NCBI GenBank assembly: GCA_047651235.1
Contig: CP178758.1
Location: 2,760,001-2,792,000 of the forward strand
DNA length: 32,000 bases
Origin: Candidatus Electrothrix yaqonensis
GTDB taxonomy: Bacteria; Desulfobacterota; Desulfobulbia; Desulfobulbales; Desulfobulbaceae
Direction of reading: 5' to 3'
Part shown: positions 3,362 through 17,139 of the stretch, in pieces
How positions within the stretch are numbered: position 1 is the stretch's first letter
How the letters are laid out: each line of letters opens with the position of its first letter
Program-made: the position numbers and the translations under genes
Notes under the pieces: generated by a model
Told to the model about the DNA's origin: nothing
The model's database searches: none
What the model saw: only the letters and a program-made list of their open reading frames with translations

Positions 3362-3805
3362 ATGAACAGGGCAGGGCTGCCGCATATAGACATGCCGCAG
3401 TCTCTGCAGTCCGGCTTCACCCTGCTTGAGGTCATGATTGCGGTGGCGGTCATTGCCATGTCCCTCGTCGCTCTGCTCGGCTCGCAGTCACAGAGTATTT
3501 CCATTGCCTCGATATCCCGTTTTGAGACAACCGCTTCTATGCTGGCGCGGCAGAAACTGGCTGAACTGCAGATTGAAGATTTTGAAGAACTGAGCAACGG
3601 TTCCGGGGCATTTGAGGATGACTTTGCCGACTACTCCTGGCAGACCGAGGTGACCGAACTGACCGAGGACGACACCGGCATTGAGGGATCAGACGGTCTG
3701 CTGAAGCTGATTGAGCTGCAGGTGAGCCGGGCGGATGACGAAAATATGGTCTTTACGGTGCGCTCCCTGGTTATGGCGAATGTTGCATCGGCTGAGGAAA
3801 AATGA
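3362..3805 (+). CDS. gspI: Type II secretion minor pseudopilin, GspI-like
   Basis: SG|FTLLEVMIAVAVIAMSL prepilin motif, small mature domain, SD-like GAGG upstream of ATG 3362. Position between the H-like and J-like genes. Confidence 0.7.
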   Translation: MNRAGLPHIDMPQSLQSGFTLLEVMIAVAVIAMSLVALLGSQSQSISIASISRFETTASMLARQKLAELQIEDFEELSNGSGAFEDDFADYSWQTEVTELTEDDTGIEGSDGLLKLIELQVSRADDENMVFTVRSLVMANVASAEEK

Positions 3806-4518
3806 TATTCCGGCACCAGCATACTTCCGGTTTCTCCGGTTTCACCCTGCTTGAAATCATGCTGGCCATGCTGGTCCTTGGCATGGTGGTCGCCATGATC
3901 TCGGCTTCCCTGTCAGGGAGCATCAACGTGATGGACGCCACCATGAAGCAGGGAGACGTCTATTATCAGGCGCAGGTGGCCATGGAACGGCTCAGTGCGG
4001 ACCTGGCTTCAGCGCTGCTCACAGAAAATACAGAGTTTATCGGCGGAAGCAGTGATGAGAGCGGCAGTCAGTCCATAGTGCTTTCTTTTGCCTCGCTGGG
4101 ACATCTTGTTTTTGATCCGGAAAACGATCAGCCCGGTATGGGCGTCATCAGCTATGCGGTGCAGCCGGACAGGGAACATGACGGACATTTTCTGCTCCTG
4201 CGCAGTGATGTTCTGTACCGGCCTCAGGAGGAAAACAGGGAACCTCAGGAAACAGAGGCATTCATTCTTTGCGACCGCCTGCGTTCAGTAACTTTTTCTT
4301 TTTTGGATTCACAAGGCGAGGAACAGGAAACCTGGGATACCACCGTCAAAGAAGAGGAAACGAAGGAAGAAGGGGAAACCGAGCGCCGACTGCCTGCTGC
4401 TGTTGTATGCCGTCTGGAATTCTGGGTCGATGAGGAACATTCTGTTCCCTTTCAGACAACTGTGCTTCTGCCTGCAGGCGTTATTCAGCCGGAGCCGGAG
4501 GAGGAGGATGCGGGCTGA
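3802..4518 (+). CDS. gspJ: Type II secretion minor pseudopilin, GspJ-like
   Basis: ATGA overlap with gspI. SG|FTLLEIMLAMLVLGMVV prepilin motif. 238 aa, a size typical of GspJ. Confidence 0.65.
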   Translation: MIFRHQHTSGFSGFTLLEIMLAMLVLGMVVAMISASLSGSINVMDATMKQGDVYYQAQVAMERLSADLASALLTENTEFIGGSSDESGSQSIVLSFASLGHLVFDPENDQPGMGVISYAVQPDREHDGHFLLLRSDVLYRPQEENREPQETEAFILCDRLRSVTFSFLDSQGEEQETWDTTVKEEETKEEGETERRLPAAVVCRLEFWVDEEHSVPFQTTVLLPAGVIQPEPEEEDAG

Positions 4519-5627
4519 TGCCGCGTAACCTATGTAACTTGTCTGACCTGCATGACCGTTCCGGCATGGCTCTGCTCCTGACCCTGCTGGCGGTCAGTTT
4601 TCTTGTTGCCCTGACAGTCCGGCTCGGCACTTCCGTCAATCGGCAGATGCAGGCTGCTGCTGACCAGGGAGCAGCTGTTCAGCTTGACGCCATGCTGCTC
4701 TCCGGACTCAATCTGGCACGGGCATCTCTGCTGGCTGATCAGAAAGAAAATGACTATGATGCGGCATTTGACAGTTGGGGAACTTTCGATACTGAAATGA
4801 TCGGGAGGCTTTTTCCCGACGGTAAGATGAGCATCACGGTGACCGATCTGTCCGGTCTTCTGCAGGCCAATGCACTGGTCTGGACAAAAAAAGAAAAGGA
4901 CCAATGGAAGAAAACGCAAAAAAAGAAAAAGAAAAAAAACAAAGGGAAGAAGACAAAAGACCCGGAAAAAATCCAGCAGGCCCTGTGGAAACGCTTTCTG
5001 CTTCTTGAAAATAATGGTATTGAAGAGACCGGTGAGGATAAGGTGGCCATCATGCTGGACAGCCTTGCCGACTGGCTGGACGAGAATGACGAGGAACGGG
5101 AGAACGGTGCGGAAAAAGGTTATTACAGCAGTCTGGAGCGGCCCTACATCCCGACTGACGGCCCTCTGACCCTGATTGAAGAACTGCAGCTTGTCAAAGG
5201 CTGGGGAAAAAAAAATCTCTACGGCTCAGAGGATGAAACAGGATTTATCGACGATCAGAGTACACCGCGCGGAATCATAAGCTACCTGACTGTCGGCAGG
5301 CAACCGGGCAAAATCAACATTAACACGGCCCCGGCACTGGTTCTCCAGGCCCTGCATGAAGAGATGACCCCGGAACTTGCTGCTGAGCTGGTGAATTTCA
5401 GAAAACAAGAAGAAAATAAAGAGCTGCTTGCTGAAACAGATTGGTATTGGCAGGTTTCCGGTTTTCCAGGTGATATTTCTTTTGATCAGGAGCTGGTCAC
5501 CACGGAGAGCAGCTGTTTCAGAATAACCGTGACTGCCGAGGTCAAAGGATTCCGGCGTACCGGTACGGGTATTATCCGACGCGAGGAAACTCAGGAGCAG
5601 GTGCTGCTCAACTGGAAAGTGGAATGA
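4518..5627 (+). CDS. gspK: Type II secretion minor pseudopilin GspK-like, with a poly-lysine insertion
   Basis: TGATG junction with gspJ. N-terminus SG|MALLLTLLAVSFLVAL lacks Phe+1 and Glu+5, as is usual for GspK. GKININTAPALVLQAL motif. 369 aa. Confidence 0.75.
   Translation: MPRNLCNLSDLHDRSGMALLLTLLAVSFLVALTVRLGTSVNRQMQAAADQGAAVQLDAMLLSGLNLARASLLADQKENDYDAAFDSWGTFDTEMIGRLFPDGKMSITVTDLSGLLQANALVWTKKEKDQWKKTQKKKKKKNKGKKTKDPEKIQQALWKRFLLLENNGIEETGEDKVAIMLDSLADWLDENDEERENGAEKGYYSSLERPYIPTDGPLTLIEELQLVKGWGKKNLYGSEDETGFIDDQSTPRGIISYLTVGRQPGKININTAPALVLQALHEEMTPELAAELVNFRKQEENKELLAETDWYWQVSGFPGDISFDQELVTTESSCFRITVTAEVKGFRRTGTGIIRREETQEQVLLNWKVE
4885..4971 (+). repeat. A-rich low-complexity tract inside gspK (encodes KKEKDQWKKTQKKKKKKNKGKKTKDPEK)
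   Basis: Direct reading shows A7 at 4918-4924 and A8 at 4932-4939, plus several A4-A6 runs. Confidence 0.9.
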
Positions 5628-5769
5628 AATCGTATTTACTCTTCTGTATATCCTGTACGCCCTGCCTGCTCTGTTCACAACGCTGTTTACAACGTGCGGC
5701 CAGTTTTTCAGAGCAACTCCGGGCGTACAGGCTCTGCTGTGAATCGTATGGAGATACCGGCAGGGGATA

Positions 5770-7299
5770 ATGGCACAGCTCTCTTTCGGTATCGATATAA
5801 GCGACAGCCTGTTGAGCGGTGTCGGCGTTGTCCGGGACGGTAAGGATGCCCGAATTACCGCCTGTGCCTTCCGCCGACTCCGGGACGACAGTGAGCTTGA
5901 TGAGGCACTGCCGCTGCTGCTCAAGGAACTGGAGTGGAAGGATGGAAGTGCTTGTGATGTCGGTATATCTCTGTCCTGCCTGAGCCTACGCAATCTTTCC
6001 CTGCCGTTTACCGATAAAAAGAAAATCGATCAGATCCTTCCCTTTGAGCTGGAAGAACAGCTTCTGACGTCTGTTGATCAGCAGATTATTGCTACAGCTC
6101 CTGTTGCCGGGCAGGACAGGCAGGCGAACCGGACGAAGCTGCTGGCTGCTGCAGTTGAAAAGAGTACAGTAGCCCGCTATGTTGCGCTGTTCAACAGTCG
6201 GAATGCAGAACCGGACAGAATCTGCCCGGCCGGTTTTGTCCTGACAGACAGATTCTGCCGGACCGATCGGAAAACAGAGGATTTTCTTGTCCTGTCCTGC
6301 GATCTCTGCTCCATCACAATGATTGCCGTGCATCAGGGAACCGTGGTCTTTATGCGGCGTCTCGCCTATCCCACTGAGGTGTTCACGCATGCATTATTCT
6401 CTTTTGACGGCAGCCGGGTCCGCACGGATGATCCGGACGCGGCGGAGCAGGCGGTCACCGAGGTCTGCAGAGCAGTGGAACACAGCATGGATATTTTCTC
6501 CCTTCATTCTGCACTTACCCTGCAGCCTGACTGTGCCGTACTGTCCGGCCCGATGCAGCTCGGAGAGGGCTTTCAGGAAAAGATTGAAGCGGAACTCGGT
6601 CTGGTCTGCAGAGCATGTGATCTGGTCCGGGACGGAGCAGCAGCCCTTTCTCCGGCCATGACGAAGCAATGGCTGCCTGCCGTCTTTGACCGCCCCCTTG
6701 CCCTTGCCCTGCAGGCCGGGGACAGAAAAAAGACAGTCCCCCTTAATTTCCGCAAAGGCGAGTTTGCTCCGCCGCACCATCTGCTCCGCTCCAAAAAACA
6801 GATTGTACGGGCTGCTCTGGCGGCAGGATGCCTGTTTATCGCGATAACCGGTTACCTGTTTTTTGACTACAGACAGCTGCAGAAAAAATACGACACCCTG
6901 GCCGCTGACCAGGAACAGGTCTTCCGGAAAACCTTTTCCGGCATTGAACCGGGCAGAGATCCGCTGATGCACATGCGGTCCAAACTGAAAGAAATGGATA
7001 CCGGCTCTGTTTCCATGCCTGTCTTCAGTCAGGAAAAGCGTATCCTGGTCGTGCTTGCTGATATTTCCTCCCGAATTCCTTCTTCTCTTGATCTGCATGT
7101 GATACGCCTGATTATTGATCAGGAATCCGTCAAACTCAACGGGACCACAGATGCTTTCAATAATGTCAATACGATCAAAAGCCTGCTGACGGAATCCGAC
7201 CGATATTCGGAGGTCAATATCGTTTCTGCCACCAAGGGAAAAGAGAAAGAAGGCATCCGTTTTGAGATCAGATTGCAGCTTGCAGGAGGAACCTCCTGA
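5770..7299 (+). CDS. gspL: Type II secretion inner-membrane protein GspL-like (PilM-like cytoplasmic domain + TM + periplasmic domain)
   Basis: N-terminal FGIDISDS and ILPFELEEQLL motifs typical of GspL/PilM. Single TM AALAAGCLFIAITGYLFF around residue 350, then a C-terminal periplasmic domain. SD GGGGA before the ATG. Confidence 0.65.
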   Translation: MAQLSFGIDISDSLLSGVGVVRDGKDARITACAFRRLRDDSELDEALPLLLKELEWKDGSACDVGISLSCLSLRNLSLPFTDKKKIDQILPFELEEQLLTSVDQQIIATAPVAGQDRQANRTKLLAAAVEKSTVARYVALFNSRNAEPDRICPAGFVLTDRFCRTDRKTEDFLVLSCDLCSITMIAVHQGTVVFMRRLAYPTEVFTHALFSFDGSRVRTDDPDAAEQAVTEVCRAVEHSMDIFSLHSALTLQPDCAVLSGPMQLGEGFQEKIEAELGLVCRACDLVRDGAAALSPAMTKQWLPAVFDRPLALALQAGDRKKTVPLNFRKGEFAPPHHLLRSKKQIVRAALAAGCLFIAITGYLFFDYRQLQKKYDTLAADQEQVFRKTFSGIEPGRDPLMHMRSKLKEMDTGSVSMPVFSQEKRILVVLADISSRIPSSLDLHVIRLIIDQESVKLNGTTDAFNNVNTIKSLLTESDRYSEVNIVSATKGKEKEGIRFEIRLQLAGGTS

Positions 7300-7841
7300 T
7301 GGCCTCACTGAGCCGGAAAGACCGCAGAGCCCTGTTTATCCTCGGCATTGCTGTGATCGTTTTTGCTGCTGTCCGGTTTATACTCTTCCCGCTCCTGGAT
7401 GAGCGCAAACGGCTGGAACGGGGAATCAGCAGCAAAGAAAACGGACTGACGGAAATGCAGGCAATGCAGAAAAATATCAGCCGACTCAGCCGAAGAAACA
7501 ACACGTTGGGACAGCGTGTCGCCGAACGGCCGGAGAATTTCAGTCTTTTTGCCTTTCTGGAGCAGCAGAGCGCCCGGACCGGGGTAAAGGAAAATATCGC
7601 CTATATGAAGCCCTCTGATCCGACCGGCGAAGGCAGCCTGCAGCAGATCATGGTGGAAATGAAATTCAAAGCCATTCCGCTCAACCGACTGGTGGATTTT
7701 CTGAAGCGGGTTGAATCACCGGAGCATATTGTCGAGCTGCAGCGTATTTCCGTGCAGACCAACAAAAAAGAACGGGGCACCCTTGACGTGATTATGCAGG
7801 TAATCAGCCTGATACAGCAGACTGAAGAGGGCGGCAACTGA
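7299..7841 (+). CDS. gspM: Type II secretion protein GspM-like
   Basis: TGATG junction with gspL. 180 aa with a basic N-terminus, one TM (ALFILGIAVIVFAAVRFILF) and a periplasmic domain. The call rests on topology, size and synteny. Confidence 0.55.
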   Translation: MASLSRKDRRALFILGIAVIVFAAVRFILFPLLDERKRLERGISSKENGLTEMQAMQKNISRLSRRNNTLGQRVAERPENFSLFAFLEQQSARTGVKENIAYMKPSDPTGEGSLQQIMVEMKFKAIPLNRLVDFLKRVESPEHIVELQRISVQTNKKERGTLDVIMQVISLIQQTEEGGN

Positions 7842-7844
7842 ACC

Positions 7845-8807
7845 ATGCTTATGCGGCTGATCAGATTTTCAGGATACCTGCTTTATACCCTGGCGGTTCT
7901 GTGTTTTCTGCTCTGGTATAAATTCCCGTCCGACGCTGTTCTGACCAGAGCGGAAAAGGATCTGAACCGGATGACGCCTTCCCTGCAGTGGGATATAGGG
8001 CGAATCTCCCTGTTGCCTCCCCAGGATATCCTTCTTCGCAATATCAGGATCAGCAGCAAAAGCAGCAAAGAAAAAAACGAACTGCTGTTCACCATACCGT
8101 GGGCCACCCTGCGGCCGAACCTGCTGCACCGGCAGAAAACCGGAGAACTTGCAGCGACATATCGTGTTCGGGCTGCAGGGGGGAAAATCAGCGGTCGCCT
8201 TGCTCTGAACAAAGAACGCTCTGTTCTCAGTTACAGCGGCAATGTTGAACAAATCAGGCTGGATGACAAGAACATCCAGAAGCTGCTTGCAGAATATGAC
8301 CGCACGGTTTCCGGCAGTCTGTCCGGCAGCTTTACCGGGAAAGAACAGCTGGCGGACAGAACCCATACTGTCCGGGCCCGGCTCAGCCTGGATCAGGGCA
8401 GCATCAGCATGCAGGAGCCGGTTCTGGGGTTGGAACAGCTTGACTTTGACCAGCTGACCGGTGATCTGCAGTATGCAGGAGGTACCCTTGCTGTTGAACA
8501 GGGAGAAATGAAGTCCCGCTCTCTTGCGGCAGAGTTTACTCTGGAGATCCGGACCGCTCCTTCTCTTTCTCCTTTTTCCCGCATCAGTCTGAAAGGAACC
8601 CTGATGCCCGAACCCGGATTTATTGCTTCTTTCGGCGGTACCGGGATTGTCGGCATGTTGAGGAAATATCTGCAGCAGAACAAACTGCCCTTTACCATCA
8701 GCGGTCCCCTGAAACATCCGGGCATTGTCTTTACCAAGCTGCCTCCCGGATTAAATCAGCAGCTTCAAGAACTGCAGCAGGTTCAGCAGGGGGGAGAGCA
8801 GCCATGA
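7845..8807 (+). CDS. gspN: Type II secretion protein GspN-like
   Basis: 320 aa with an N-terminal TM (YLLYTLAVLCFLLW) and GxxSGxL-type stretches (GGKISGRLAL, VSGSLSGSFTG). Sits after gspM. The family call is from memory and synteny, so it is weaker. Confidence 0.5.
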   Translation: MLMRLIRFSGYLLYTLAVLCFLLWYKFPSDAVLTRAEKDLNRMTPSLQWDIGRISLLPPQDILLRNIRISSKSSKEKNELLFTIPWATLRPNLLHRQKTGELAATYRVRAAGGKISGRLALNKERSVLSYSGNVEQIRLDDKNIQKLLAEYDRTVSGSLSGSFTGKEQLADRTHTVRARLSLDQGSISMQEPVLGLEQLDFDQLTGDLQYAGGTLAVEQGEMKSRSLAAEFTLEIRTAPSLSPFSRISLKGTLMPEPGFIASFGGTGIVGMLRKYLQQNKLPFTISGPLKHPGIVFTKLPPGLNQQLQELQQVQQGGEQP

Positions 8808-9733
8808 TCCGGGTTGCGGCAAAACTGATTATTCTGTTTGCTCTGCTCTACGCAGGAGTACACTTGGGCTATGCCAGGTTGGAAAAGGAGCTACTGCAGG
8901 GGAGCTGCTGTCCGCCCAGTCCACCCAATACTTCATCCCCGCAAAAACAGGGGCAGACCGCAGAGGCTCAGGGTAAAACAGGAAGATCAGTCCGCCAGCA
9001 GACCGGCAACAGACCGGCCAGTACTGCCCCTTCTGCAACAGCCGATAATAAAGGAGAAAAAAAGGAAGGTCAGCCGGATTTTCAGAGCATTATCCGCCGC
9101 AATATCTTTCAGCTTGTCCAGGAAGCAGCCGTACAGCCAGCAGCTCCGCCGGTCAGGGAAGAAAAAAGAGAAGAAGTTGTTCCGACACGCCTGAACCTGA
9201 CCTTGGTAGGAACTGTTACCGGGACCGAACAGACAGCCAGGGCGATTATTCTGGAGAGCGGCATGCAGCAGCAAAAACTCTTTCAGGTAGGGGATTCTGT
9301 GCAGCGCGCCATTATTGAGTCCATCGAGCGGGGCAAAGTTACCCTTGATGTAAACGGCACACTGGAAGTGCTACAGATGAAAAAACGGGAAGGCGGCGGC
9401 CCCAGGTCACCCTTTTCACCCGGAAGCATCTCCCGTCCATCCCGGATACCCCGGCGTACCCTAACACCTCCTCCAGACGATGAAATCGATGCTGATATAG
9501 ATGCTGATATAGATGACGATTTCGATGATATTGATGATGTCGAGATGGAGGATGAAAAGGAAGGCCCGGCGGCACAGAGACAGAGAAGCCCCGCTCCCCG
9601 TCGTTTCCGAAGGCCGAATTTCCGACGTAATCCGGCCCGGCAATCTGCTGCGGATCAGGACAGCGGCATTGAAGATGAGGATGCGGCAATTCCTCCTGAC
9701 GATATTGTAGAAGAGCTGCCGCCTGATGATTAA
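8804..9733 (+). CDS. gspC: Type II secretion protein GspC-like (TM + HR/PilP-like domain, no PDZ, acidic/proline tail)
   Basis: ATGA junction with gspN. N-terminal TM AAKLIILFALLYAGV. HR-like core LNLTLVGTVTGTEQTARAIILESG..KLFQVGDSVQRAIIESIERGKVTLDVNG. Immediately upstream of the secretin gene. Confidence 0.55.
   Translation: MIRVAAKLIILFALLYAGVHLGYARLEKELLQGSCCPPSPPNTSSPQKQGQTAEAQGKTGRSVRQQTGNRPASTAPSATADNKGEKKEGQPDFQSIIRRNIFQLVQEAAVQPAAPPVREEKREEVVPTRLNLTLVGTVTGTEQTARAIILESGMQQQKLFQVGDSVQRAIIESIERGKVTLDVNGTLEVLQMKKREGGGPRSPFSPGSISRPSRIPRRTLTPPPDDEIDADIDADIDDDFDDIDDVEMEDEKEGPAAQRQRSPAPRRFRRPNFRRNPARQSAADQDSGIEDEDAAIPPDDIVEELPPDD
9488..9511 (+). repeat. Tandem 12-bp repeat GATGCTGATATA x2 inside gspC (encodes DADIDADI)
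   Basis: Exact copies at 9488-9499 and 9500-9511, followed by degenerate GAT-rich codons (DDDFDDIDDVEMEDE). Confidence 0.9.
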
Positions 9734-9809
9734 CAGCCCCAGAGAAATACTGCTCTATCAATTCGCTGTGTTTGCCAGAAAACTCACTGTGATTTTGCAT
9801 CAGTTGATT

Positions 9810-12767
9810 ATGAAACATACATCCTGTTTGTACCATACGTTTGTTTACCATGCGTTTCGGCTTGTTCTCCTGTTCAGCCTGACAGTGGCTCTGCTGCCGC
9901 CTGCGGCTTCTGCTGCCGATCAGCCGGACAAAGATACGCAGCAGTCGCAGGCACCTGCTGCTGTTTCCCCTGACCAGCCGAAAAAAAAGGGGCAGCAATA
10001 TGTTACGATTGATTTTAATGATGTTGATATCAATATGTTCATTAAATATATCAGCGAGCTGACCGGAAAAAATTTTATCGTTGACCGTTCGGTCAAAGGC
10101 AAGATCACGGTTATCTCGCCGACTAAAATGTCCGAACAGGACGCCTACCGGGTCTTTGAATCAGTCCTGGAGGTCCACGGCTATACCACAGTGCCCAGCG
10201 GACCGATCATCAAGATCGTCCCTGCGGTACAGGCCAGGTCCAAAAATATTCCCATGGTCAGGGCAGGGGAGCACGTCGATTCTTCTGACAAGGTGGTCAC
10301 CCGGATTGTTCCGCTACAATATTCCGACCCGGATGAGCTGAAAAAACTCCTGACCCCTCTGCTCTCCAAAACCAGTGTCATGATTGCCCACCCACAGTCC
10401 GGTGTCCTGATCATGACCGATGTCCTGTCCAACATCAACCGGCTCATGGATATCATCGAAGTTGTTGATGTTCCGTCCACAGGAGAGGAAATGGAAATCA
10501 TCCCGCTGAGATATGCCTCTGCAGCCGATGTCGGGAAATCCATCAGCCAGCTCTTTGCCCGCTCTGCGAGACGACGGACCCGCACCAGGCGGGCAGCAAC
10601 CGAGATTCAGGTGATTCCCTATGAACGCACTAACTCCCTGATCGTTTTTGCCCCGAAAACCCAGATTGACAGCATTCGTGAGCTGGTACAGAAGCTGGAT
10701 ACTGAGGCGCCCAGAGGCGGCGGGAAAATACATGTATATTATCTCCAGCATGCCGATGCAGAAGAACTGGTCAAAGTGCTGACCAATCTGCCGACACAGC
10801 AGTCCGGAACCGGAGCCAAAAAGGGAGCAAAGGCGGCCGAAGTCCCGGTCCTGTCCACGGATTTGAAAATCACAGCTGATCCGGAAACCAACTCCCTGAT
10901 TATTACCGCTCCCAAAGAAGAGTATCTGGTCCTGGAAGATATTATCAGAAAACTTGATATTCCCCGCCGCATGGTTTACCTCGAAGCTCTGATCATGGAG
11001 GTTTCTATTGATAAAATCTTTCAGCTGGGTGTTGAATGGGGCGGTCTGGGTAGCTTCCATGATGAAACCGGTACCTTGGGAGCTGGTTTTACAGACAATA
11101 ACTTCGGTATGGTCAACGGTCTTACCCTAGGAACAGCAGGTATGCCCGACGGGACGACCCTCGGCATTCTGAAAAAAGGTGTCGAGATCAGCGGTATTTA
11201 TTTTCCGGATCTCGGATCGGTAGTCAATGCCTTTAAGACAGATTCAGATATCAATATCATTGCCACACCCCAAATTTTGACTACAGATAATAAGGAAGCA
11301 TCTATTGCGATCGTTCAGAATGTTCCTTATATCACCAGTAAGAATACCTCCGAGACCGGTAGCGGTCAGGATTATACTAATTATGAATATAAAGATGTAG
11401 GCACTACGCTAAAAATCACTCCGCAAATCAACCAAGACAATTTATTGCGGCTTGATATAGAAGTTGCGGTAGACAGGCTGAAAAGTGAGGCCAGCACTAC
11501 AACTCCGTCAACATTTAAACGAACTGCTAGCACAACTGTAGTTCTCCATAATGAAGAGATCGTTGTTATCGGAGGAATGGTGGGGAATGATACCACTTCC
11601 GGTGAGTACAAGGTTCCCCTGCTCGGTGATATTCCGTTGCTGGGCTGGCTGTTTAAAACCCATGAAGACAGTGACCGGAAAACCAACATGTTTATCTTCA
11701 TCATGCCCCGCATTGTTGAAAGTTCACCGGAGCTGGCTGGAATCTATGAACAGAAACGTAATGTTATGGATGAGGCCAGTGAAGGGGCAGGTGATGTACC
11801 GGAGCAGACCTTTCAGATCTCTGCGGGCCATGAAGACGCTTTTGTCCTCATTGACATGGGGTATGCCCGACTGCAGAAGAAAAAGTATGCTGAGGCAAAG
11901 GCATATTTTGAACAGGCCCTGGAGCTTGATCCGGACAACCAGCATGCCCTGCTCAACATGGGCACCATCTATGAACATGAAGGGGAAAAAGGCAAGGCGA
12001 TTCAGGTTTATGAACAGATACTCAACCGTGCTGAGCAGCAGCAGTATGGTGACGGTCCGGAACAGAAGAAGAGCGAGGATAAAGCACTGGTCAATATCGC
12101 GCGTGAAAAGCTGAACAAACTCCGCAATCCCAAGCAGATTGAACCGAAAGAACCGACCGGTTCCCCTCCCGGATCTCCAGAACCTTCGGGATCTCCCCGG
12201 ACAACGCTCCATCCTGCGGAAGTGAAGCATTCCTCTAAGGAACCGTCGCCTTCCGGACAGACCGGTGCAAAACCTCCGGGCAATACTCAGGCTGAGGAGC
12301 GGACCATTCCGGCAACTGAAGAGTCATGCGGCAACCCTTGGAAAACACCCCTTATGGAGATCAGAGGGAAAGTAAAAAAGGTGGAATACAGAAAGCCGCC
12401 GTGGAGTTCTCAAAAAGGACTGCATCTTGACGTGGAGATTGCTGGCAAGCAGAATATTGTTGTCCATGTCTTTCCGGAGCAGCCGAAACAGCTGACAAAG
12501 CAGTGTCAGGACCTGTTCACCTTTAAACAGGGAGAGATTGTCACTGTTTCCGGCTCTGCATTTTTCACCAAGGCAGGAAGTCAACCGAATATTTGTGCCG
12601 CTGCAGTTACCCGGAATGCAGGTGTACTGAACCTCAGAACTCCGACAACGGGCCGCCTTGAAAAAGGGACATGCTGTCAGGAAATCTGCAGGAAAAGATG
12701 TACCGGCAGGGGAGCGGTCTGCAGAAGGCGATGTATGGATCGCTGCAGCACAGAAGGCCGTTTTTAG
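9810..12767 (+). CDS. gspD: Type II secretion outer-membrane secretin GspD with ~340-aa C-terminal extension
   Basis: ATG 9810 is preferred because a signal-like LLFSLTVALLPPAASAA follows it. N0 domain YVTIDFNDVDINMFIKYISELTGKNFIVD. Secretin core IATPQILTTDNKEASI...VVIGGM...KVPLLGDIPLLGWLFK...TNMFIFIMPRIV ends near 11730, and the ORF continues to 12767. Confidence 0.9.
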   Translation: MKHTSCLYHTFVYHAFRLVLLFSLTVALLPPAASAADQPDKDTQQSQAPAAVSPDQPKKKGQQYVTIDFNDVDINMFIKYISELTGKNFIVDRSVKGKITVISPTKMSEQDAYRVFESVLEVHGYTTVPSGPIIKIVPAVQARSKNIPMVRAGEHVDSSDKVVTRIVPLQYSDPDELKKLLTPLLSKTSVMIAHPQSGVLIMTDVLSNINRLMDIIEVVDVPSTGEEMEIIPLRYASAADVGKSISQLFARSARRRTRTRRAATEIQVIPYERTNSLIVFAPKTQIDSIRELVQKLDTEAPRGGGKIHVYYLQHADAEELVKVLTNLPTQQSGTGAKKGAKAAEVPVLSTDLKITADPETNSLIITAPKEEYLVLEDIIRKLDIPRRMVYLEALIMEVSIDKIFQLGVEWGGLGSFHDETGTLGAGFTDNNFGMVNGLTLGTAGMPDGTTLGILKKGVEISGIYFPDLGSVVNAFKTDSDINIIATPQILTTDNKEASIAIVQNVPYITSKNTSETGSGQDYTNYEYKDVGTTLKITPQINQDNLLRLDIEVAVDRLKSEASTTTPSTFKRTASTTVVLHNEEIVVIGGMVGNDTTSGEYKVPLLGDIPLLGWLFKTHEDSDRKTNMFIFIMPRIVESSPELAGIYEQKRNVMDEASEGAGDVPEQTFQISAGHEDAFVLIDMGYARLQKKKYAEAKAYFEQALELDPDNQHALLNMGTIYEHEGEKGKAIQVYEQILNRAEQQQYGDGPEQKKSEDKALVNIAREKLNKLRNPKQIEPKEPTGSPPGSPEPSGSPRTTLHPAEVKHSSKEPSPSGQTGAKPPGNTQAEERTIPATEESCGNPWKTPLMEIRGKVKKVEYRKPPWSSQKGLHLDVEIAGKQNIVVHVFPEQPKQLTKQCQDLFTFKQGEIVTVSGSAFFTKAGSQPNICAAAVTRNAGVLNLRTPTTGRLEKGTCCQEICRKRCTGRGAVCRRRCMDRCSTEGRF

Positions 12768-12864
12768 GTTGCAGGCAGGCGCAGGCAGCAAAAAAATATT
12801 GTATTTATCCGGTCATAAGGTCATAACAACAGATGAGCAAAAGGCGGTTCCGGGGAGCAGCTGC

Positions 12865-14556
12865 ATGAAACATCTTGGAGAAATACTGATTGAATCCTTT
12901 GACCTGGAGGAAGAGGCAGTCAATGACGCGCTGAAAATACAGGACGAAAAAGGCGGTCGGCTGGGCAGAATTCTTATTCAGAGGAAAAAAATATCTGAAG
13001 ATGATCTGCTGCAGGCATTAAGTCAGCAATCCGGCCTGGAATTGCGGCATTCGCTCCCACCGGCCTTGGATCCTTTTTTTACAGAGCGGATTTCCATCGG
13101 TTTTTTAAAAAAATTTAAAATGATACCGGTGGCAACGCCGCAGGAGTCTTTTATTGCCCTGTCCGACCCGTTTTATTTTCAGCAGCTGGACGATCTTTGT
13201 CGTACCCTGCATTGGGAGGGGATCAGAATATATCTGGTTCCCAGCGATACGATTTTCATTGCCATCAACACGGCGTATGATCGATCCAGCCAAGGAGCAG
13301 CGGATCAGGTTCTGCAGGATATCGATGAAGACGATCCTGAGGCCATTCTTTCCGAAATTGAGGAAACTGCTGACCTGCTGGATGATACCAGCGATGCCCC
13401 GGTCATCAAACTGGTCAACCTGATCCTGTCCCAGGCTGTCCGGGACAATGCCAGTGATATTCATATTGAACCCTACAAGAATCAGGTGAAAATCCGGCAG
13501 CGGGTTGACGGGATACTCTATGATATGCTCACCCCGCCCAAGCATGTGCAGGCCAAACTGATTTCCAGGGTCAAAATTATGGCCAAGATGGATATCGCGG
13601 AGAAGCGTTTACCCCAGGACGGCCGTATTGAAATCCGCATTGCGGATAAAAACATTGACCTGCGTGTCTCCACCCTGCCCACATCGTTCGGCGAACGGGT
13701 GGTTATGCGGCTCCTGGATAAGTCCAATGTCCTGCTTTCCCTGGAACAGCTCGGCATGTCCCCGCGTGACCTGCAGCTTCTCCTTGAACTGATCAAGGCG
13801 CCTCACGGCATCATTCTGGTCACCGGCCCCACAGGCAGCGGCAAGACCACCAGTCTGTATTCCGTCCTGACCGTACTCAATAAACCTGATGTCAATATTA
13901 TCACTGTAGAGGATCCCATTGAGTACCAGATCAACGGGATCAGTCAGGTGCAGGTGAACGCAAAAATCGATCTCACCTTTGCCAAAGGTCTGCGTACCAT
14001 TGTCCGGCAGGATCCGGATATTATTCTGGTCGGCGAAATCAGGGATATGGAAACCGCTGAAATGGCGATTCAGGCTGCCCTGACCGGACATCTTGTTTTC
14101 TCCACCCTGCATACCAACGATGCTGCCAGCGCTGTTACCCGCCTGATTGATATGGGGGTGGAACCGTTCCTGGTTTCCTCATCAGTGAACGCCATTATGG
14201 GTCAGCGTCTGGTGCGGAAAATCTGCCCCCATTGCCGGGAAGCATACAGACCGTCTGAAGAATATCTGGAAAAACTCGATCTGCCAGCAGCATTTCAGGA
14301 TGCTGTGCTCTATCACGGCAAAGGCTGTGAAGAATGCCTGCATACCGGGTACCAGGGGAGGCTGGGTATTTATGAACTCATGGTGCTCTCGGAACATATC
14401 AAGAGCATGATCCTCACCACGTCGGATTCCGGGCGGATCAAGCGGGAGGCTCTGGCCGATCCTGATTATCCCATGACGACCCTGCGCATGGACGGGCTGC
14501 AGAAGGTGCTGGACGGCCTGACAACCCTTGAAGAGGTCTTCCGGGTCGCCGCCTGA
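12865..14556 (+). CDS. gspE: Type II secretion ATPase GspE
   Basis: ATG 12865. N-terminal T2SSE_N/MshEN-like helices. Walker A GPTGSGKTTS, ILVGEIRD (Walker B region) and tetracysteine CPHC...CEEC. 563 aa. Confidence 0.93.
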   Translation: MKHLGEILIESFDLEEEAVNDALKIQDEKGGRLGRILIQRKKISEDDLLQALSQQSGLELRHSLPPALDPFFTERISIGFLKKFKMIPVATPQESFIALSDPFYFQQLDDLCRTLHWEGIRIYLVPSDTIFIAINTAYDRSSQGAADQVLQDIDEDDPEAILSEIEETADLLDDTSDAPVIKLVNLILSQAVRDNASDIHIEPYKNQVKIRQRVDGILYDMLTPPKHVQAKLISRVKIMAKMDIAEKRLPQDGRIEIRIADKNIDLRVSTLPTSFGERVVMRLLDKSNVLLSLEQLGMSPRDLQLLLELIKAPHGIILVTGPTGSGKTTSLYSVLTVLNKPDVNIITVEDPIEYQINGISQVQVNAKIDLTFAKGLRTIVRQDPDIILVGEIRDMETAEMAIQAALTGHLVFSTLHTNDAASAVTRLIDMGVEPFLVSSSVNAIMGQRLVRKICPHCREAYRPSEEYLEKLDLPAAFQDAVLYHGKGCEECLHTGYQGRLGIYELMVLSEHIKSMILTTSDSGRIKREALADPDYPMTTLRMDGLQKVLDGLTTLEEVFRVAA

Positions 14557-16022: not shown

Positions 16023-16856
16023 ATGTATTTTGATTTCAACGAGTTGACAAAATTTACTTTAGGGAGTGATGGGAGAACAGTTCAATGTGTTGCGCAGTTC
16101 CTGAAACCTGTTCATATTGTTATGATGTCGATTCTTCATCATTATACTGATTGTTCTGCAACTTTTCTGTATCATGCTGATTATGCAAAGGTTATGAGGT
16201 TTGATGACCCTTTGGAGATCGATACTGTCGATGGCAGCAATCATTCGAAGGCTATAAAATTAAAAAATAAATTCGATAATGATAAGCAAGTCAAAAAAAT
16301 AATGACCATCCTTGAGGGGAATAATTATCTTGATAATGAAACAAATAGCATTTTAGAGCTTGTAATATCTGAAGTATTTCAAAATTTTTATGCGCATGCT
16401 GATACCGATAAACCTCCGATATGTTGTGTTCAGGACTGGTCTACATCGGATTTTATGGAAATTTCAATTGCTGATAACGGGATAGGAATTGGTAATGCGC
16501 TGGGAGCTGCTTTAAAAAATTATTCCGACAACAGTAATCCATGCAGGATAGCTTGTGACCTTGGTGTGAGTTCGTGCTTATATGGAAAGGGTAAGCTGGG
16601 AACCTCACATAGTGGTTATGGTTTGTATTACACGAAAAGATTTATTGAAGAAAACAAAGGGATTTTATTCTTGTTCTCCGGCAACACTTGCTATATAAAT
16701 AAAGATGGGGTAGAGAATGATAGGACTCTTCCATATTCTTGGAAAGGAACCGTTATTAGATTGATAATCAACAAGAAATACACTCTCCCCTCAAAATATT
16801 TCTTCGAGAAAATCGGTAAAGAAATAGATGGAGATGATTATGAAGAATTCTTTTAA
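16023..16856 (+). CDS. GHKL (Bergerat-fold) ATPase / putative Ser-kinase-like protein with an unrecognised ~105-aa N-terminal region
   Basis: 277-aa ORF in AT-rich DNA. N-box-like ELVISEVFQNFYAHA, G1 box ISIADNGIGIGNALG, G2 box SHSGYGLYYTKRFIEE. No TM, no DHp/His-box helix, no transducer domain. No clear SD before ATG 16023. Confidence 0.6.
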   Translation: MYFDFNELTKFTLGSDGRTVQCVAQFLKPVHIVMMSILHHYTDCSATFLYHADYAKVMRFDDPLEIDTVDGSNHSKAIKLKNKFDNDKQVKKIMTILEGNNYLDNETNSILELVISEVFQNFYAHADTDKPPICCVQDWSTSDFMEISIADNGIGIGNALGAALKNYSDNSNPCRIACDLGVSSCLYGKGKLGTSHSGYGLYYTKRFIEENKGILFLFSGNTCYINKDGVENDRTLPYSWKGTVIRLIINKKYTLPSKYFFEKIGKEIDGDDYEEFF

Positions 16857-17139
16857 GCTAAGCGAGTTGTCCGAGAATACATTGGTTGGGCGTGATATCG
16901 GCATGAAAACACGGCATAAGATAAAAGATTTGCTGAAAGATTACTCAAATCTCACCATAGATATGGAAGATAAGAGTGATATTTCATTGTCTTTTTTGGA
17001 CGAGGCTATAGTTTCGCTTGTACTTGAGTATGGCAAGGCGCGTTTTTCCAACCAGATAAAGCTGAAAAATGTACACTGTAATATTAGGCATATGATGAAT
17101 TTTATTTTGAACGATAAGCAAAAGAGGCTTGCTGTGTGA
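16840..17139 (+). CDS. STAS-like small protein (DUF4325-type)
   Basis: About 99 aa from ATG 16840, with GGAG 8-11 nt upstream inside the preceding gene; the ORF opens at 16828. Overlaps the GHKL gene by 17 nt. The core VGRDIGMKTRHKIKDLL...LTIDMEDKSDISLSFLDEAIVSLVLEYG fits my memory of the DUF4325 pattern (regulated segment, then DF-x-gV-x-isSSFlDE). Confidence 0.55.
   Translation: MKNSFKLSELSENTLVGRDIGMKTRHKIKDLLKDYSNLTIDMEDKSDISLSFLDEAIVSLVLEYGKARFSNQIKLKNVHCNIRHMMNFILNDKQKRLAV

What the first reader, a model, noticed from the sequence alone, without database searches (positions are those of the whole stretch)
11730..12767. Secretin GspD carries a ~340-aa C-terminal extension: TPR, Pro/Ser linker, beta-rich module and a triple-Cx3C hairpin-like tail
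The secretin core ends at ...TNMFIFIMPRIVESSPE (~11730), but the ORF continues for about 345 more residues. From established knowledge, GspD is usually about 650-760 aa, with at most a short S-domain after the core. The extension has four parts. (a) TPR-like repeats YARLQKKKYAEAKAYFEQALELDPDNQHALLNMGTIYEHEGEKGKAIQVYEQIL (~11836-12030). (b) A Pro/Ser/Gly linker (PTGSPPGSPEPSGSP...). (c) A module GLHLDVEIAGKQNIVVHVFPE...FKQGEIVTVSGSAFF...ICAAAVTRNAGVLNLRTPTTGR. It resembles, from memory, the small periplasmic beta-rich VHLGP...GD.V.V.G...LRD..G domain that some databases annotate as MamS/MamX-like in Desulfobacterota. (d) The tail CC-x3-C-x3-C-x6-C-x3-C-x3-C (GTCCQEICRKRCTGRGAVCRRRCMDRC, 12666-12767). 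That i/i+4 Cys spacing on two segments is what disulfide-stapled helix-loop-helix (twin-Cx3C-like) folds or metal clusters use. All 10 Cys of the mature protein lie in the last 147 residues; I see none in the ~840 residues before them. A secretin fused to a possible redox- or metal-binding or pilotin-like module would be unusual.
Basis: partly seen in the sequence, partly recalled or inferred. Interest (0 to 1): 0.7.

Follow-up and report, generated by a model that had tools for sequence, protein, structure and literature searches.

The report
Secretin fused to a cysteine-rich periplasmic module
The outer-membrane secretion channel protein (GspD) of the cable bacterium Candidatus Electrothrix yaqonensis YB6 has acquired, by gene fusion, a small cysteine-rich periplasmic domain of unknown function; in other Electrothrix species this domain is a separate membrane-tethered protein, so the fusion is real and rare but is a lineage-specific curiosity.

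Summary
ORF 9726-12767 (probable start 9810, 985 aa) is the GspD secretin of a complete type II secretion operon in Ca. Electrothrix sp. YB6. It runs about 340 aa past the secretin core, and all 10 mature cysteines lie in the last 146 residues.

The extension is two things of different age. The two-TPR domain with its capping helix (aa 702-800) occurs in essentially all of the 120 best GspD orthologues from Desulfobulbales, so it is normal for that clade. The Pro/Ser linker, OB-fold domain and Cys-rich helix-loop-helix (aa 801-1013) are absent from every other GspD found. In close relatives gspE starts 10 nt after gspD.

One metagenomic relative carries the same linker and module in an open frame upstream of gspE. 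Elsewhere the module is a stand-alone, membrane-anchored or lipoprotein-fused "hypothetical protein", and every named carrier is Ca. Electrothrix.

The Cys pattern is conserved, and 17 of 18 modules have exactly 10 Cys, which favours five disulfides. My reading is a periplasmic binding module whose anchor was swapped to the secretin. Its ligand is unknown, and metal binding is not excluded.

The parts
9810..12767 (+). gspD coding sequence. The probable start is ATG 9810 (aa 29 of the 9726 ORF), giving 985 aa plus the stop codon.
   Evidence: ORF list. 100% identical to the NCBI protein 'type II secretion system secretin GspD [Ca. Electrothrix sp. YB6]', P0007.
9810..9914 (+). Signal peptide (MKHTS...LLPPAASA, with cleavage inferred after ASA at aa 63).
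   Evidence: The strongest hydrophobic stretch of the protein is at aa 40-60, and an AXA motif is read directly from the sequence. The cleavage site is inferred.
10008..11741 (+). Canonical GspD core: N0, three Secretin_N domains and the secretin barrel (aa 95-672).
   Evidence: TIGR02517 at 533 bits against a cut-off of 351. PF21305, PF03958 (three copies) and PF00263. Matches solved GspD structures 5wln, 5zdh and 5wq7 up to about aa 680 of the ORF.
11829..12041 (+). Two TPR motifs (four helices, aa 702-772), typical of Desulfobulbales GspD.
   Evidence: TPR_1, TPR_2 and TPR_8 above their cut-offs. AF2 pLDDT is above 90 with helices 49-64, 68-81, 86-99 and 102-119 of the model. Conserved in 15 orthologues.
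12060..12125 (+). Capping helix (aa 779-800, ...EDKALVNIAREKLNKLR). This is where orthologous GspDs end.
   Evidence: AF2 helix 126-147. In Electrothrix orthologues the same helix is followed by at most about 6-8 residues and the stop codon; Electronema adds a K/E/P-rich tail.
12126..12317 (+). Pro/Ser/Glu/Thr-rich linker (aa 801-864). This is the start of the lineage-specific addition.
   Evidence: Composition and lack of any hydrophobic segment. dN/dS against L003 is 0.71. DNA homology to other gspD genes stops here.
12327..12635 (+). MamS/MamX-type OB-fold domain (aa 868-970) with Cys868, Cys927 and Cys957.
   Evidence: AF2 beta-barrel, whole-model pLDDT 80 and pTM 0.72. Foldseek OB-fold hits to the LysRS N-terminal domain, Stn1/Ten1 and OBody. 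PF26390 precomputed on homologues. Profile search found 103 relatives.
12666..12755 (+). Cys-rich helix-loop-helix (aa 981-1010): CC-x3-C-x3-C / C-x3-C-x3-C.
   Evidence: AF2 helices 117-127 and 133-146 of the tail model. The Cys are invariant. 17 of 18 modules have exactly 10 Cys.
12865..14556 (+). gspE (ATPase), 98 nt after the gspD stop codon. Relatives have a 10-nt gap.
   Evidence: PF00437 T2SSE, E = 2e-148. L006 and L008 gene tables. DNA alignment.
3802..9733 (+). Upstream type II secretion genes: gspJ, gspK, gspL, gspM, an unknown 320-aa ORF, and gspC.
   Evidence: Pfam T2SSJ, T2SSK, T2SSL/PilN, T2SSM and T2SSC. The gene order is the same in relatives.

Best explanation
This is a genuine GspD secretin whose C-terminus carries two additions of different age.

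1. **Old, clade-wide addition.** A two-TPR domain plus capping helix is shared by Desulfobulbales GspDs. It most likely serves as a periplasmic protein-protein docking surface on the outside of the secretin ring (inferred).
2. **Recent in-frame gene fusion, seen only in the YB6 lineage.** About 640 nt were inserted between the end of gspD and gspE. They encode a flexible Pro/Ser linker and a 150-aa periplasmic module made of a MamS/MamX-type OB fold and a Cys-rich alpha-hairpin.

In other Ca. Electrothrix species the same module is the C-terminal end of separate proteins. These hang in the periplasm from an N-terminal membrane helix, a lipoprotein or signal peptide, or a META/NlpE-like lipoprotein, usually through a long low-complexity linker.

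The fusion therefore swaps the anchor. The module is now tethered to the periplasmic face of the outer-membrane secretin, one copy per subunit. That would be about 15 per channel if this secretin is a pentadecamer like the solved GspDs.

The module itself is most likely a disulfide-stapled binding unit. Three disulfides would zip the two helices, and two more would involve the extra Cys and the three OB-domain Cys. It would bind a still unknown periplasmic ligand.

**Shown:** the anatomy, the fusion, its rarity, conservation of the Cys, purifying selection, and the folds as predicted. **Inferred:** periplasmic location, disulfide state, binding role and copy number.
For: - **Operon:** GspD core, TPR and full operon.
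- **TPR is clade-wide:** essentially all of the 120 best orthologues carry TPR hits but cover only about 70-80% of the query (two truncated entries, 619 and 697 aa, show no TPR hit). Their sequences end after the capping helix or in K/E/P-rich tails.
- **Insertion site:** in the closest relatives gspE begins 10 nt after gspD.
- **Independent relative:** metagenome contig L003 has the same linker and module in a frame that is open from the contig start, followed by gspE.
- **Selection:** YB6 against L003 gives module dN/dS 0.37 at dS 0.35, and linker dN/dS 0.71.
- **No separate gene:** there is no usable start codon or export signal between the TPR and the OB domain.
- **Stand-alone and differently anchored homologues:**. 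Every named carrier is Ca. Electrothrix.
- **Folds:** the AF2 model shows an OB barrel plus helix-loop-helix with OB-fold matches.
- **Cysteines:** all 10 are invariant. The OB-domain Cys occur only where the hairpin is present. 17 of 18 modules have exactly 10 Cys although some positions shift, and extra Cys come in pairs. The free-standing extra hairpin in L003 has 3 + 3 Cys.
Against: - Continuity from the TPR into the linker is seen directly only in the YB6 assembly. L003 begins exactly at the junction.
- The YB6 authors report difficulties with polishing (PMC12093952).
- No coordinates were available, so Cys-Cys distances in the model could not be measured. Even parity is also compatible with a fixed set of metal ligands.
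- Cys-free relatives carry Met-rich tails, and one has Met at most of the hairpin Cys positions. That hints at thiophilic-metal chemistry rather than purely structural disulfides.
- No expression or protein-level data exist.
- Whether YB6 also keeps stand-alone paralogues could not be determined.
Confidence: 0.55

Rival explanations
1. The Cys-rich hairpin, together with the OB-domain Cys, is a thiolate metal site or redox centre (Cu(I), Ni, Zn or an Fe-S-type cluster), not a disulfide staple. The family would handle or sense thiophilic metals or redox state in the cable-bacterial periplasm, and in YB6 it would do so next to the secretion channel.
For: - The i/i+4 Cys spacing on two antiparallel helices puts the thiols on facing surfaces. 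From established knowledge, this arrangement is used by Cys-lined helical copper-storage proteins.
- Cys-free relatives of the same OB family carry Met/Gln/Lys-rich helical tails and Gly/Met-rich N-termini. P0223 has Met at most of the positions that hold hairpin Cys.
- From established knowledge, Met-rich motifs and the OB-fold protein CusF bind periplasmic Cu(I).
- In other Electrothrix the module is fused to NlpE_C/META lipoproteins. From established knowledge, NlpE is linked to copper and envelope redox stress.
- MamX combines the same OB type with haem-binding magnetochrome domains (PMC3905215).
- Cable-bacterial fibres contain a sulfur-ligated Ni cofactor (abstracts of PMC12093952 and PMC10959288).
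Against: - The strictly even Cys count (10, with extras in pairs) despite shifting positions is the signature expected for disulfide pairing.
- There is no similarity to any known metal-binding family in Pfam, NCBIfam or PDB sequences.
- Neighbouring genes are housekeeping genes, not metal genes.
- No link to the conduction machinery is reported in the papers searched.
Confidence: 0.25
2. The fusion reports a functional partnership (Rosetta-stone logic). The OB + Cys proteins would be accessory factors of the type II secretin in cable bacteria, for example pilotin-like targeting or assembly factors, gate regulators or substrate receptors. They might dock on the clade-specific TPR domain, and YB6 would simply have made the link covalent.
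For: - The fusion has been kept under purifying selection in two diverged lineages.
- The TPR domain of all these GspDs is a peptide-binding type of fold. The best structural matches include TPRs that clamp C-terminal peptides (STI1, CHIP) and T3SS chaperones.
- The seven closest module sequences all end in an invariant C-terminal Phe.
- No classical pilotin gene was seen in the operon.
Against: - Stand-alone copies are never next to type II secretion genes. They follow PEPCK, aconitase or unrelated genes.
- The same module is also fused to unrelated anchors (META/NlpE-like lipoproteins, tandem arrays) and is multi-copy in one genome, Electrothrix sp. AR4. This fits a promiscuous tethered module better than a dedicated secretin partner.
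- Electronema and other Desulfobulbales have the TPR-bearing GspD, but none appears among the named carriers of the module.
- The pilotin models score far below their cut-offs.
Confidence: 0.12
3. The long ORF is an artefact: an assembly or polishing error, or a very recent pseudogene-like read-through, that joins gspD to a separate downstream gene.
For: - The genome comes from ONT assembly with one round each of Racon and Pilon polishing, and the authors note polishing problems.
- L003 breaks exactly at the junction.
- A 9-nt match (CAGATTGAA) near the junction lies in a different frame in YB6 and L006.
Against: - A separate gene would have no start codon with an export signal. The only in-frame candidates are GTG 12222, followed by hydrophilic sequence, and ATG 12354, already inside the OB domain after the conserved Cys868.
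- In L003 the frame is open through the same linker, with its first Met inside a Cys hairpin.
- Relatives have no gene between gspD and gspE that could have been merged.
- All homologues need export, since each has a TM helix or signal peptide.
- The module is under purifying selection.
Confidence: 0.05

Closest known systems
Type II secretion secretin GspD (TIGR02517; solved structures such as 5wln, 5wq7 and 5zdh)
   Same: It has the N0 domain, three N domains and the secretin barrel, scores above the equivalog cut-off, and sits in a gspJ-K-L-M-C-D-E operon.
   Different: The solved GspDs are 520-660 residues as deposited, and their matches to this protein stop at about aa 680 of the ORF. This protein continues with a TPR domain, which is clade-typical. 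Uniquely, it then adds a linker, an OB fold and a Cys hairpin. No S-domain/pilotin pair was identified.
GspD orthologues of Desulfobulbales (Ca. Electrothrix aarhusensis, laxa, scaldis and gigas; Ca. Electronema; Desulfogranum)
   Same: They are 55-74% identical over the core, share the two-TPR domain and capping helix, and have the same operon order.
   Different: They end after the capping helix at 742-766 aa, or carry only low-complexity K/E/P tails (Electronema, up to 876 aa). None has the OB + Cys module, and gspE follows after 10 nt.
Stand-alone Electrothrix 'hypothetical proteins' with the same module (e.g. RWX44444.1 H206_01718 of E. aarhusensis, VU04_04625 of Desulfobulbus sp. TB, XCN72523.1 of E. 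aestuarii)
   Same: They have the same OB domain and Cys hairpin with all 10 Cys, at 46-61% identity (75% for the fused relative P0001). A low-complexity linker precedes the module.
   Different: They are anchored by an N-terminal membrane helix, a signal peptide or a META/NlpE-like lipoprotein instead of a secretin. They lie in housekeeping neighbourhoods.
MamS / MamX magnetosome proteins (Pfam PF26390 MamS_MamX)
   Same: They have a small OB-fold (YgiW-like) domain tethered to a membrane. In MamX it is combined with a redox module (PMC3905215). PF26390 hits are recorded on the homologues.
   Different: There is no magnetosome island and there are no magnetochrome CXXCH motifs. The Cys hairpin is not part of MamS or MamX. 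The similarity covers the OB part only and is weak for most homologues.
Disulfide-stapled helix-loop-helix folds (twin-Cx3C small Tim proteins, plant alpha-hairpinins)
   Same: Cx3C motifs lie on two antiparallel helices joined by a short loop.
   Different: It has three Cx3C-spaced Cys per helix rather than two, plus an extra Cys, and it is attached to an OB domain. It is bacterial and periplasmic. There is no sequence homology, and the disulfides have not been demonstrated.
TPR pilotins of secretins (PilF/PilW, Tgl, TadD)
   Same: They are TPR proteins acting at secretins. There are weak NCBIfam matches to PilW and Tgl, and PilF appears among the structural matches (rank 44).
   Different: The scores are far below the cut-offs. 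There are only two TPRs, no lipobox, and the domain is fused to the secretin itself. Generic TPRs match better.

Membership tests
GspD secretin (TIGR02517) | Whole-protein score above the equivalog cut-off | tested here: met
   533.4 bits against a cut-off of 351.35, covering aa 95-672 and model positions 1-598 of 600.
GspD secretin (TIGR02517) | Domain set: N0, repeated Secretin_N and the C-terminal secretin domain | tested here: met
   PF21305, PF03958 (three stretches) and PF00263, all above their gathering scores.
GspD secretin (TIGR02517) | Encoded together with other type II secretion genes | tested here: met
   gspJ, K, L, M and C lie upstream and gspE downstream. Relatives show the same order.
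GspD secretin (TIGR02517) | Forms an outer-membrane multimeric channel | not testable with these tools
   Inferred only from homology to solved 15-mers.
TPR repeat domain | Matches to TPR models above the gathering score | tested here: met
   TPR_8 at 41.8 bits (cut-off 25.7), TPR_2 at 41.7 (27), TPR_1 at 39.6 (27.8), over aa 705-773.
TPR repeat domain | Helix-turn-helix pairs packed as a right-handed array | tested here: met
   AF2 predicts four helices plus a capping helix with pLDDT above 90. The best fold matches are consensus TPR proteins.
MamS_MamX domain (Pfam PF26390) | Match to the family HMM | tested here: inconclusive
   The local Pfam scan of the tail and of four homologues returned no PF26390 hit, even at E = 10. 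The collection's precomputed table lists PF26390 on P0001 (unmarked) and as 'weak' on P0002-P0004 and P0129. No PF26390 hit is listed for the YB6 protein itself (P0007).
MamS_MamX domain (Pfam PF26390) | Small OB-fold beta-barrel tethered to a membrane | tested here: met
   AF2 barrel. Foldseek OB-fold matches at E of about 5e-4. MamS is modelled as a YgiW-like OB fold with an N-terminal TM helix (PMC3905215).
MamS_MamX domain (Pfam PF26390) | Magnetosome context (magnetosome island genes, magnetochrome CXXCH in MamX) | tested here: not met
   No CXXCH motif is present in the protein. The Pfam-scanned neighbours are secretion and housekeeping genes. The similarity is therefore at domain level only, and this is not a MamS or MamX orthologue.
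Disulfide-stapled alpha-hairpin (twin-Cx3C-like) | Two antiparallel helices, each carrying Cx3C-spaced Cys | tested here: met
   Predicted helices at aa 981-991 and 997-1010 carry C984, C988, C992 and C999, C1003, C1007.
Disulfide-stapled alpha-hairpin (twin-Cx3C-like) | Cys are oxidised to inter-helix disulfides | not testable with these tools
   Support is indirect only: 17 of 18 modules have exactly 10 Cys, extra Cys come in pairs, and the isolated hairpin in L003 has 6.
Secretin pilotin (PilF/PilW/Tgl type) | Score above the family cut-off; lipoprotein with a lipobox | tested here: not met
   TIGR02521 scored 30-33 bits against a cut-off of 154, and Tgl 22-24 against 225. The domain is internal to GspD, so it has no lipobox.

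The most novel reading that the evidence does not exclude
The OB + Cys-hairpin proteins are a periplasmic protein family found so far only in Electrothrix. Their thiol-rich hairpins would bind a thiophilic metal (Ni or Cu) or shuttle electrons or sulfur in the cable-bacterial periplasm, for example in building or servicing the Ni-S cofactor fibres. The YB6 fusion would then show that this chemistry is physically coupled to the type II secretin at the outer membrane.
Probability: 0.08. Interest if true: 0.8.

Novelty: new variant of a known kind. Interest (0 to 1): 0.4.

Why it matters
For secretin biology, this is a natural example of a folded cargo domain tolerated at the C-terminus of GspD, a position usually reserved for the pilotin-binding S-domain. 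It also shows that a whole bacterial order carries a TPR domain there instead.

For cable-bacteria research, it points to an uncharacterised, multi-copy, cysteine-rich periplasmic protein family whose named members are all Ca. Electrothrix. The periplasm is the compartment that holds the conductive, sulfur-ligated nickel fibres, so a small, stable, Cys-rich module there is a cheap candidate to test for metal binding.

If the module turns out to be an ordinary disulfide-stabilised binding domain, the finding is a lineage-specific domain shuffle of modest significance.

Tried and rejected
- **Local Pfam and NCBIfam scans of the tail.** They gave no meaningful hit; the 'rhodolasso' hit at 15.9 bits against a cut-off of 30 is spurious. 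The MamS_MamX link rests on the collection's precomputed table.
- **PDB sequence search with the module profile.** Only chance hits at E of about 0.4.
- **Looking for a stand-alone copy in YB6.** I tried to reach the YB6 PEPCK-YchF locus by searching with E. gigas PEPCK, but no YB6 protein was among the 120 listed hits. Duplication versus relocation therefore stays open.
- **One AF2 run for the whole extension.** MAFFT misaligned the two sets of partial homologues (A5 and A6), so the TPR part and the module were modelled separately.
- **TPR fold search as a test of 'pilotin-like'.** It was uninformative because generic TPRs dominate.
- **Separate downstream gene.** Rejected: there is no start codon or signal peptide.
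- **Secretin fusions elsewhere.** Ten of the longest proteins in the profile search were scanned. They are META/NlpE-like, PRC-barrel, HTH or OB-repeat proteins, not secretins.
- **Literature.** Searches for any description of the extension, of the family or of locus tag H206_01718 found nothing.
- **tRNA and Rfam scans of the window.** Both were empty.


Full report
**What is in the sequence**

A single ORF runs from 9726 to 12767 on the + strand. The likely start is the ATG at 9810. It is followed by a hydrophobic signal peptide ending in ASA. The resulting 985-aa protein is identical to the NCBI entry 'type II secretion system secretin GspD [Candidatus Electrothrix sp. YB6]', on a 3.74-Mb contig. 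The window therefore comes from the closed genome of the cable bacterium described as Ca. Electrothrix yaqonensis YB6 (PMC12093952).

The gene lies in a complete type II secretion operon. The order is gspJ, gspK, gspL, gspM, an unassigned 320-aa ORF, gspC, gspD and gspE.

The GspD equivalog model TIGR02517 covers aa 95-672 at 533 bits against a cut-off of 351. Solved GspD structures align only up to about aa 680 of the ORF.

The cysteines lie at 34 (in the signal peptide), 868, 927, 957, 983, 984, 988, 992, 999, 1003 and 1007.

**The extension is two additions of different age**

*The TPR part is clade-typical.* Essentially all of the 120 best GspD homologues carry TPR Pfam hits but cover only about 70-80% of the query; the two entries without a TPR hit are truncated (619 and 697 aa). 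They come from Ca. Electrothrix aarhusensis, laxa, scaldis and gigas, from Ca. Electronema, and from Desulfobulbus and Desulfogranum, and are 730-876 aa long.

Their C-termini align well with YB6 through two TPR motifs and a following helix, with 54% mean column identity (A7). Electrothrix orthologues stop a few residues after that helix. Electronema orthologues continue with low-complexity Lys/Glu/Pro tails.

AF2 on this alignment predicts four TPR helices (aa 702-772, pLDDT above 90) and a capping helix (aa 779-800). The nearest solved folds are generic TPR proteins, and the pilotin PilF appears only at rank 44. The TPR domain is thus an order-wide feature of these secretins, not a peculiarity of this gene.

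*The linker and module are lineage-specific.* In the closest relatives gspE begins 10 nt after the gspD stop codon (L006, L007 and L008). DNA alignment shows that YB6 departs from them just before their stop codon (...KLRN|PKQIEPKE...). Homology resumes at gspE about 740 nt later. The addition is about 640 nt of coding sequence plus a 98-nt spacer.

**Is the fusion real?**

The added segment has no hydrophobic stretch before the OB domain. Its only in-frame start codons are GTG 12222, followed by hydrophilic linker, and ATG 12354, already inside the OB domain and downstream of the conserved Cys868. All homologues of the module carry an export signal or membrane anchor. A separate gene here would therefore lack what the family needs.

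An independent JGI metagenome contig (L003) encodes a 75%-identical module upstream of gspE. Its reading frame is open from the first base of the contig through a homologous linker (SPEPSG..TLHPA). The first Met lies inside a Cys hairpin, so the gene caller's start is wrong.

Between YB6 and L003 the module has dN/dS 0.37 at dS 0.35, and the linker has 0.71. This is the pattern of a functional domain on a fast-evolving spacer, kept in two diverged lineages.

There is one caveat. L003 starts exactly at the junction. Direct continuity from the TPR into the linker therefore rests on the YB6 assembly alone. That assembly was made from ONT R10.4.1 reads with Racon and Pilon polishing, and the authors mention polishing difficulties. 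I rate an artefact at about 5%.

**What the added module is**

A search with the last 149 residues found six clusters. A profile search of 1.84 billion representatives found 103 proteins at E of 1e-3 or better, 19 of them at 1e-30 or better. None of the 10 long hits that I scanned with Pfam is a secretin.

The close relatives fall into these groups:
- proteins of 150-300 aa with an N-terminal membrane helix or signal peptide, a low-complexity linker and the module, for example E. gigas L009, where the gene sits between PEPCK and YchF, and E. aestuarii L012, where it follows aconitase;
- tandem-duplicated forms, such as E. marina L010 and P0127;
- fusions to META/NlpE_C lipoproteins, P0133 and P0134.

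Every member that carries an organism name is Ca. Electrothrix, or an early-named 'Desulfobulbus sp. TB' that has the same PEPCK-gene-YchF locus as E. gigas. Electrothrix sp. AR4 has at least three paralogues. All are annotated 'hypothetical protein' or only 'META domain-containing protein'.

The collection's precomputed Pfam table puts PF26390 (MamS_MamX) on several of them. My local Pfam copy gave no such hit.

AF2 on seven sequences gives a model with pLDDT 80 and pTM 0.72. It has a five- to six-stranded barrel with a short helix between strands 3 and 4, followed by a helix-loop-helix. Foldseek against the PDB returns OB folds: the LysRS N-terminal domain, Stn1/Ten1 and OBody, at E of about 5e-4. 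This agrees with published predictions that MamS, and part of MamX, are YgiW-like OB folds tethered by an N-terminal membrane helix (PMC3905215).

**The cysteines**

All ten are invariant in the seven closest sequences, as is the C-terminal Phe.

Across the wider family, Cys at the positions of C868 and C957 occurs only in proteins that also have the Cys hairpin or belong to the tandem forms. Generic members have Tyr, Ile or Val at the C957 position and no N-terminal Cys.

In 17 of 18 complete modules, drawn from clusters no more than 50% identical to each other, the count is exactly 10. This holds even though the first hairpin Cys shifts (CC, C-x2-C, C-x5-C) and the helix Cys of the OB domain moves. 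Extra Cys after the hairpin come in pairs. The extra hairpin that L003 carries in its linker has 3 + 3 Cys.

Conserved even parity under positional drift is what disulfide pairing predicts. My reading is therefore three inter-helix disulfides plus two that involve the extra Cys and the three OB-domain Cys.

I could not measure distances in the model, and a fixed metal-ligand set is not excluded. The Cys-free relatives carry Met/Gln/Lys-rich helical tails, and one (P0223) has Met at most of the hairpin Cys positions. That keeps a thiophilic-metal or redox role alive as the main rival.

**How it most likely works**

From established knowledge of solved GspD channels, the C-terminus of a secretin subunit lies on the periplasmic side, at the outer surface of the barrel. 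The extension is therefore periplasmic, which matches the export signals of all stand-alone homologues.

The common theme across the family is 'anchor, floppy linker, then OB + hairpin'. In YB6 the anchor is the secretin itself, giving one module per subunit.

The simplest explanation is an anchor swap. A tethered periplasmic binding module has been moved from the inner-membrane side to the outer-membrane side. This need not imply a dedicated role in secretion. The stand-alone genes are never near type II secretion genes, and the module is fused promiscuously to other anchors. A Rosetta-stone reading, in which the module is a secretin accessory docking on the TPR, remains possible but less likely.

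**Comparison with what is known, and novelty**

The protein is a bona fide GspD. Its TPR extension is shared by its order but, as far as my literature searches reach, has not been discussed. The OB part belongs at domain level to Pfam MamS_MamX, without being a MamS or MamX orthologue: it has no magnetochrome and no magnetosome context. The Cys hairpin resembles twin-Cx3C and alpha-hairpinin folds in geometry only.

No paper searched mentions the fusion, the family or its locus tags. I class it as a new variant of a known kind, with moderate interest. It is a real, rare domain fusion on a well-known machine. It also flags an uncharacterised Cys-rich periplasmic family known so far only from Electrothrix, which is worth a metal-binding and disulfide test.

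Noticed in passing
window 16023-17139: A low-GC island: the 16-17 kb bin has 35.5% G+C, against roughly 46-56% in most other bins. It holds two ORFs, a 277-aa protein with a weak HATPase_c_2 match and a 103-aa ORF immediately downstream. It lies between mnmA and an oppositely oriented 427-aa gene. This looks like horizontally acquired DNA.
   Followed up: no
L003 1-300 (JGI metagenome 3300036936, contig Ga0392314_0017231): The only other fused relative carries a second, free-standing Cys hairpin (SCQERCRQRCTGRGPVCRRRCMGRC, 3 + 3 Cys) inside its linker, upstream of the OB domain. The hairpin can therefore exist without the OB domain. The contig also begins exactly at the gspD/linker junction.
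   Followed up: partly
window 12762-12764 (last codon) and homologues P0001-P0006: The C-terminal residue is an invariant Phe in the seven closest module sequences (...EGRF...ENLF...TNIF...GNHF...TFDF). Several more distant members end in Trp, Phe or Leu. This may be a recognition signal for a TPR or PDZ domain or for a C-terminal protease.
   Followed up: no
proteins P0154, P0166, P0194, P0201, P0223 (profile search hits): Generic, Cys-free members of the MamS_MamX-like OB family are small secreted proteins. They have Gly/Met-rich N-termini and long Met/Gln/Lys-rich helical tails (e.g. MQKEMQQKMQQQMQQQMMQKMMQQNM). P0223 has Met at most of the positions that hold hairpin Cys in the Electrothrix subfamily.
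   Followed up: partly
window 8804-9733 (gspC): GspC matches only the T2SSC (HR) domain and has no PDZ hit. It ends in a strongly acidic, repetitive tail (DDEIDADIDADIDDDFDDIDDVEMEDE...).
   Followed up: no
window 7845-8807: A 320-aa ORF lies between gspM and gspC with no Pfam hit. An unannotated ORF of 285-326 aa occupies the same position in L006, L007 and L008. It is probably a conserved but unrecognised T2SS component, possibly GspN-like.
   Followed up: no
window 12768-12864 and L003 853-950: The 98-nt spacer between the fused gspD and gspE is well conserved at the DNA level between YB6 and L003. It has no counterpart in relatives, which have a 10-nt gap. It came in with the insertion and may carry the gspE ribosome-binding site or a regulatory element.
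   Followed up: no
L010 1713-3137 (Ca. Electrothrix marina) and P0127: Proteins of 474-475 aa have two tandem OB domains of this family followed by a longer, differently spaced Cys-rich region and a C-terminal hydrophobic segment.
   Followed up: no
L005 (GCA_024449685.1, 631-nt contig): Upstream of the P0003 module, the acidic/Pro-rich linker is in a different frame from the OB domain. This suggests a frameshift or sequencing error in that assembly.
   Followed up: no
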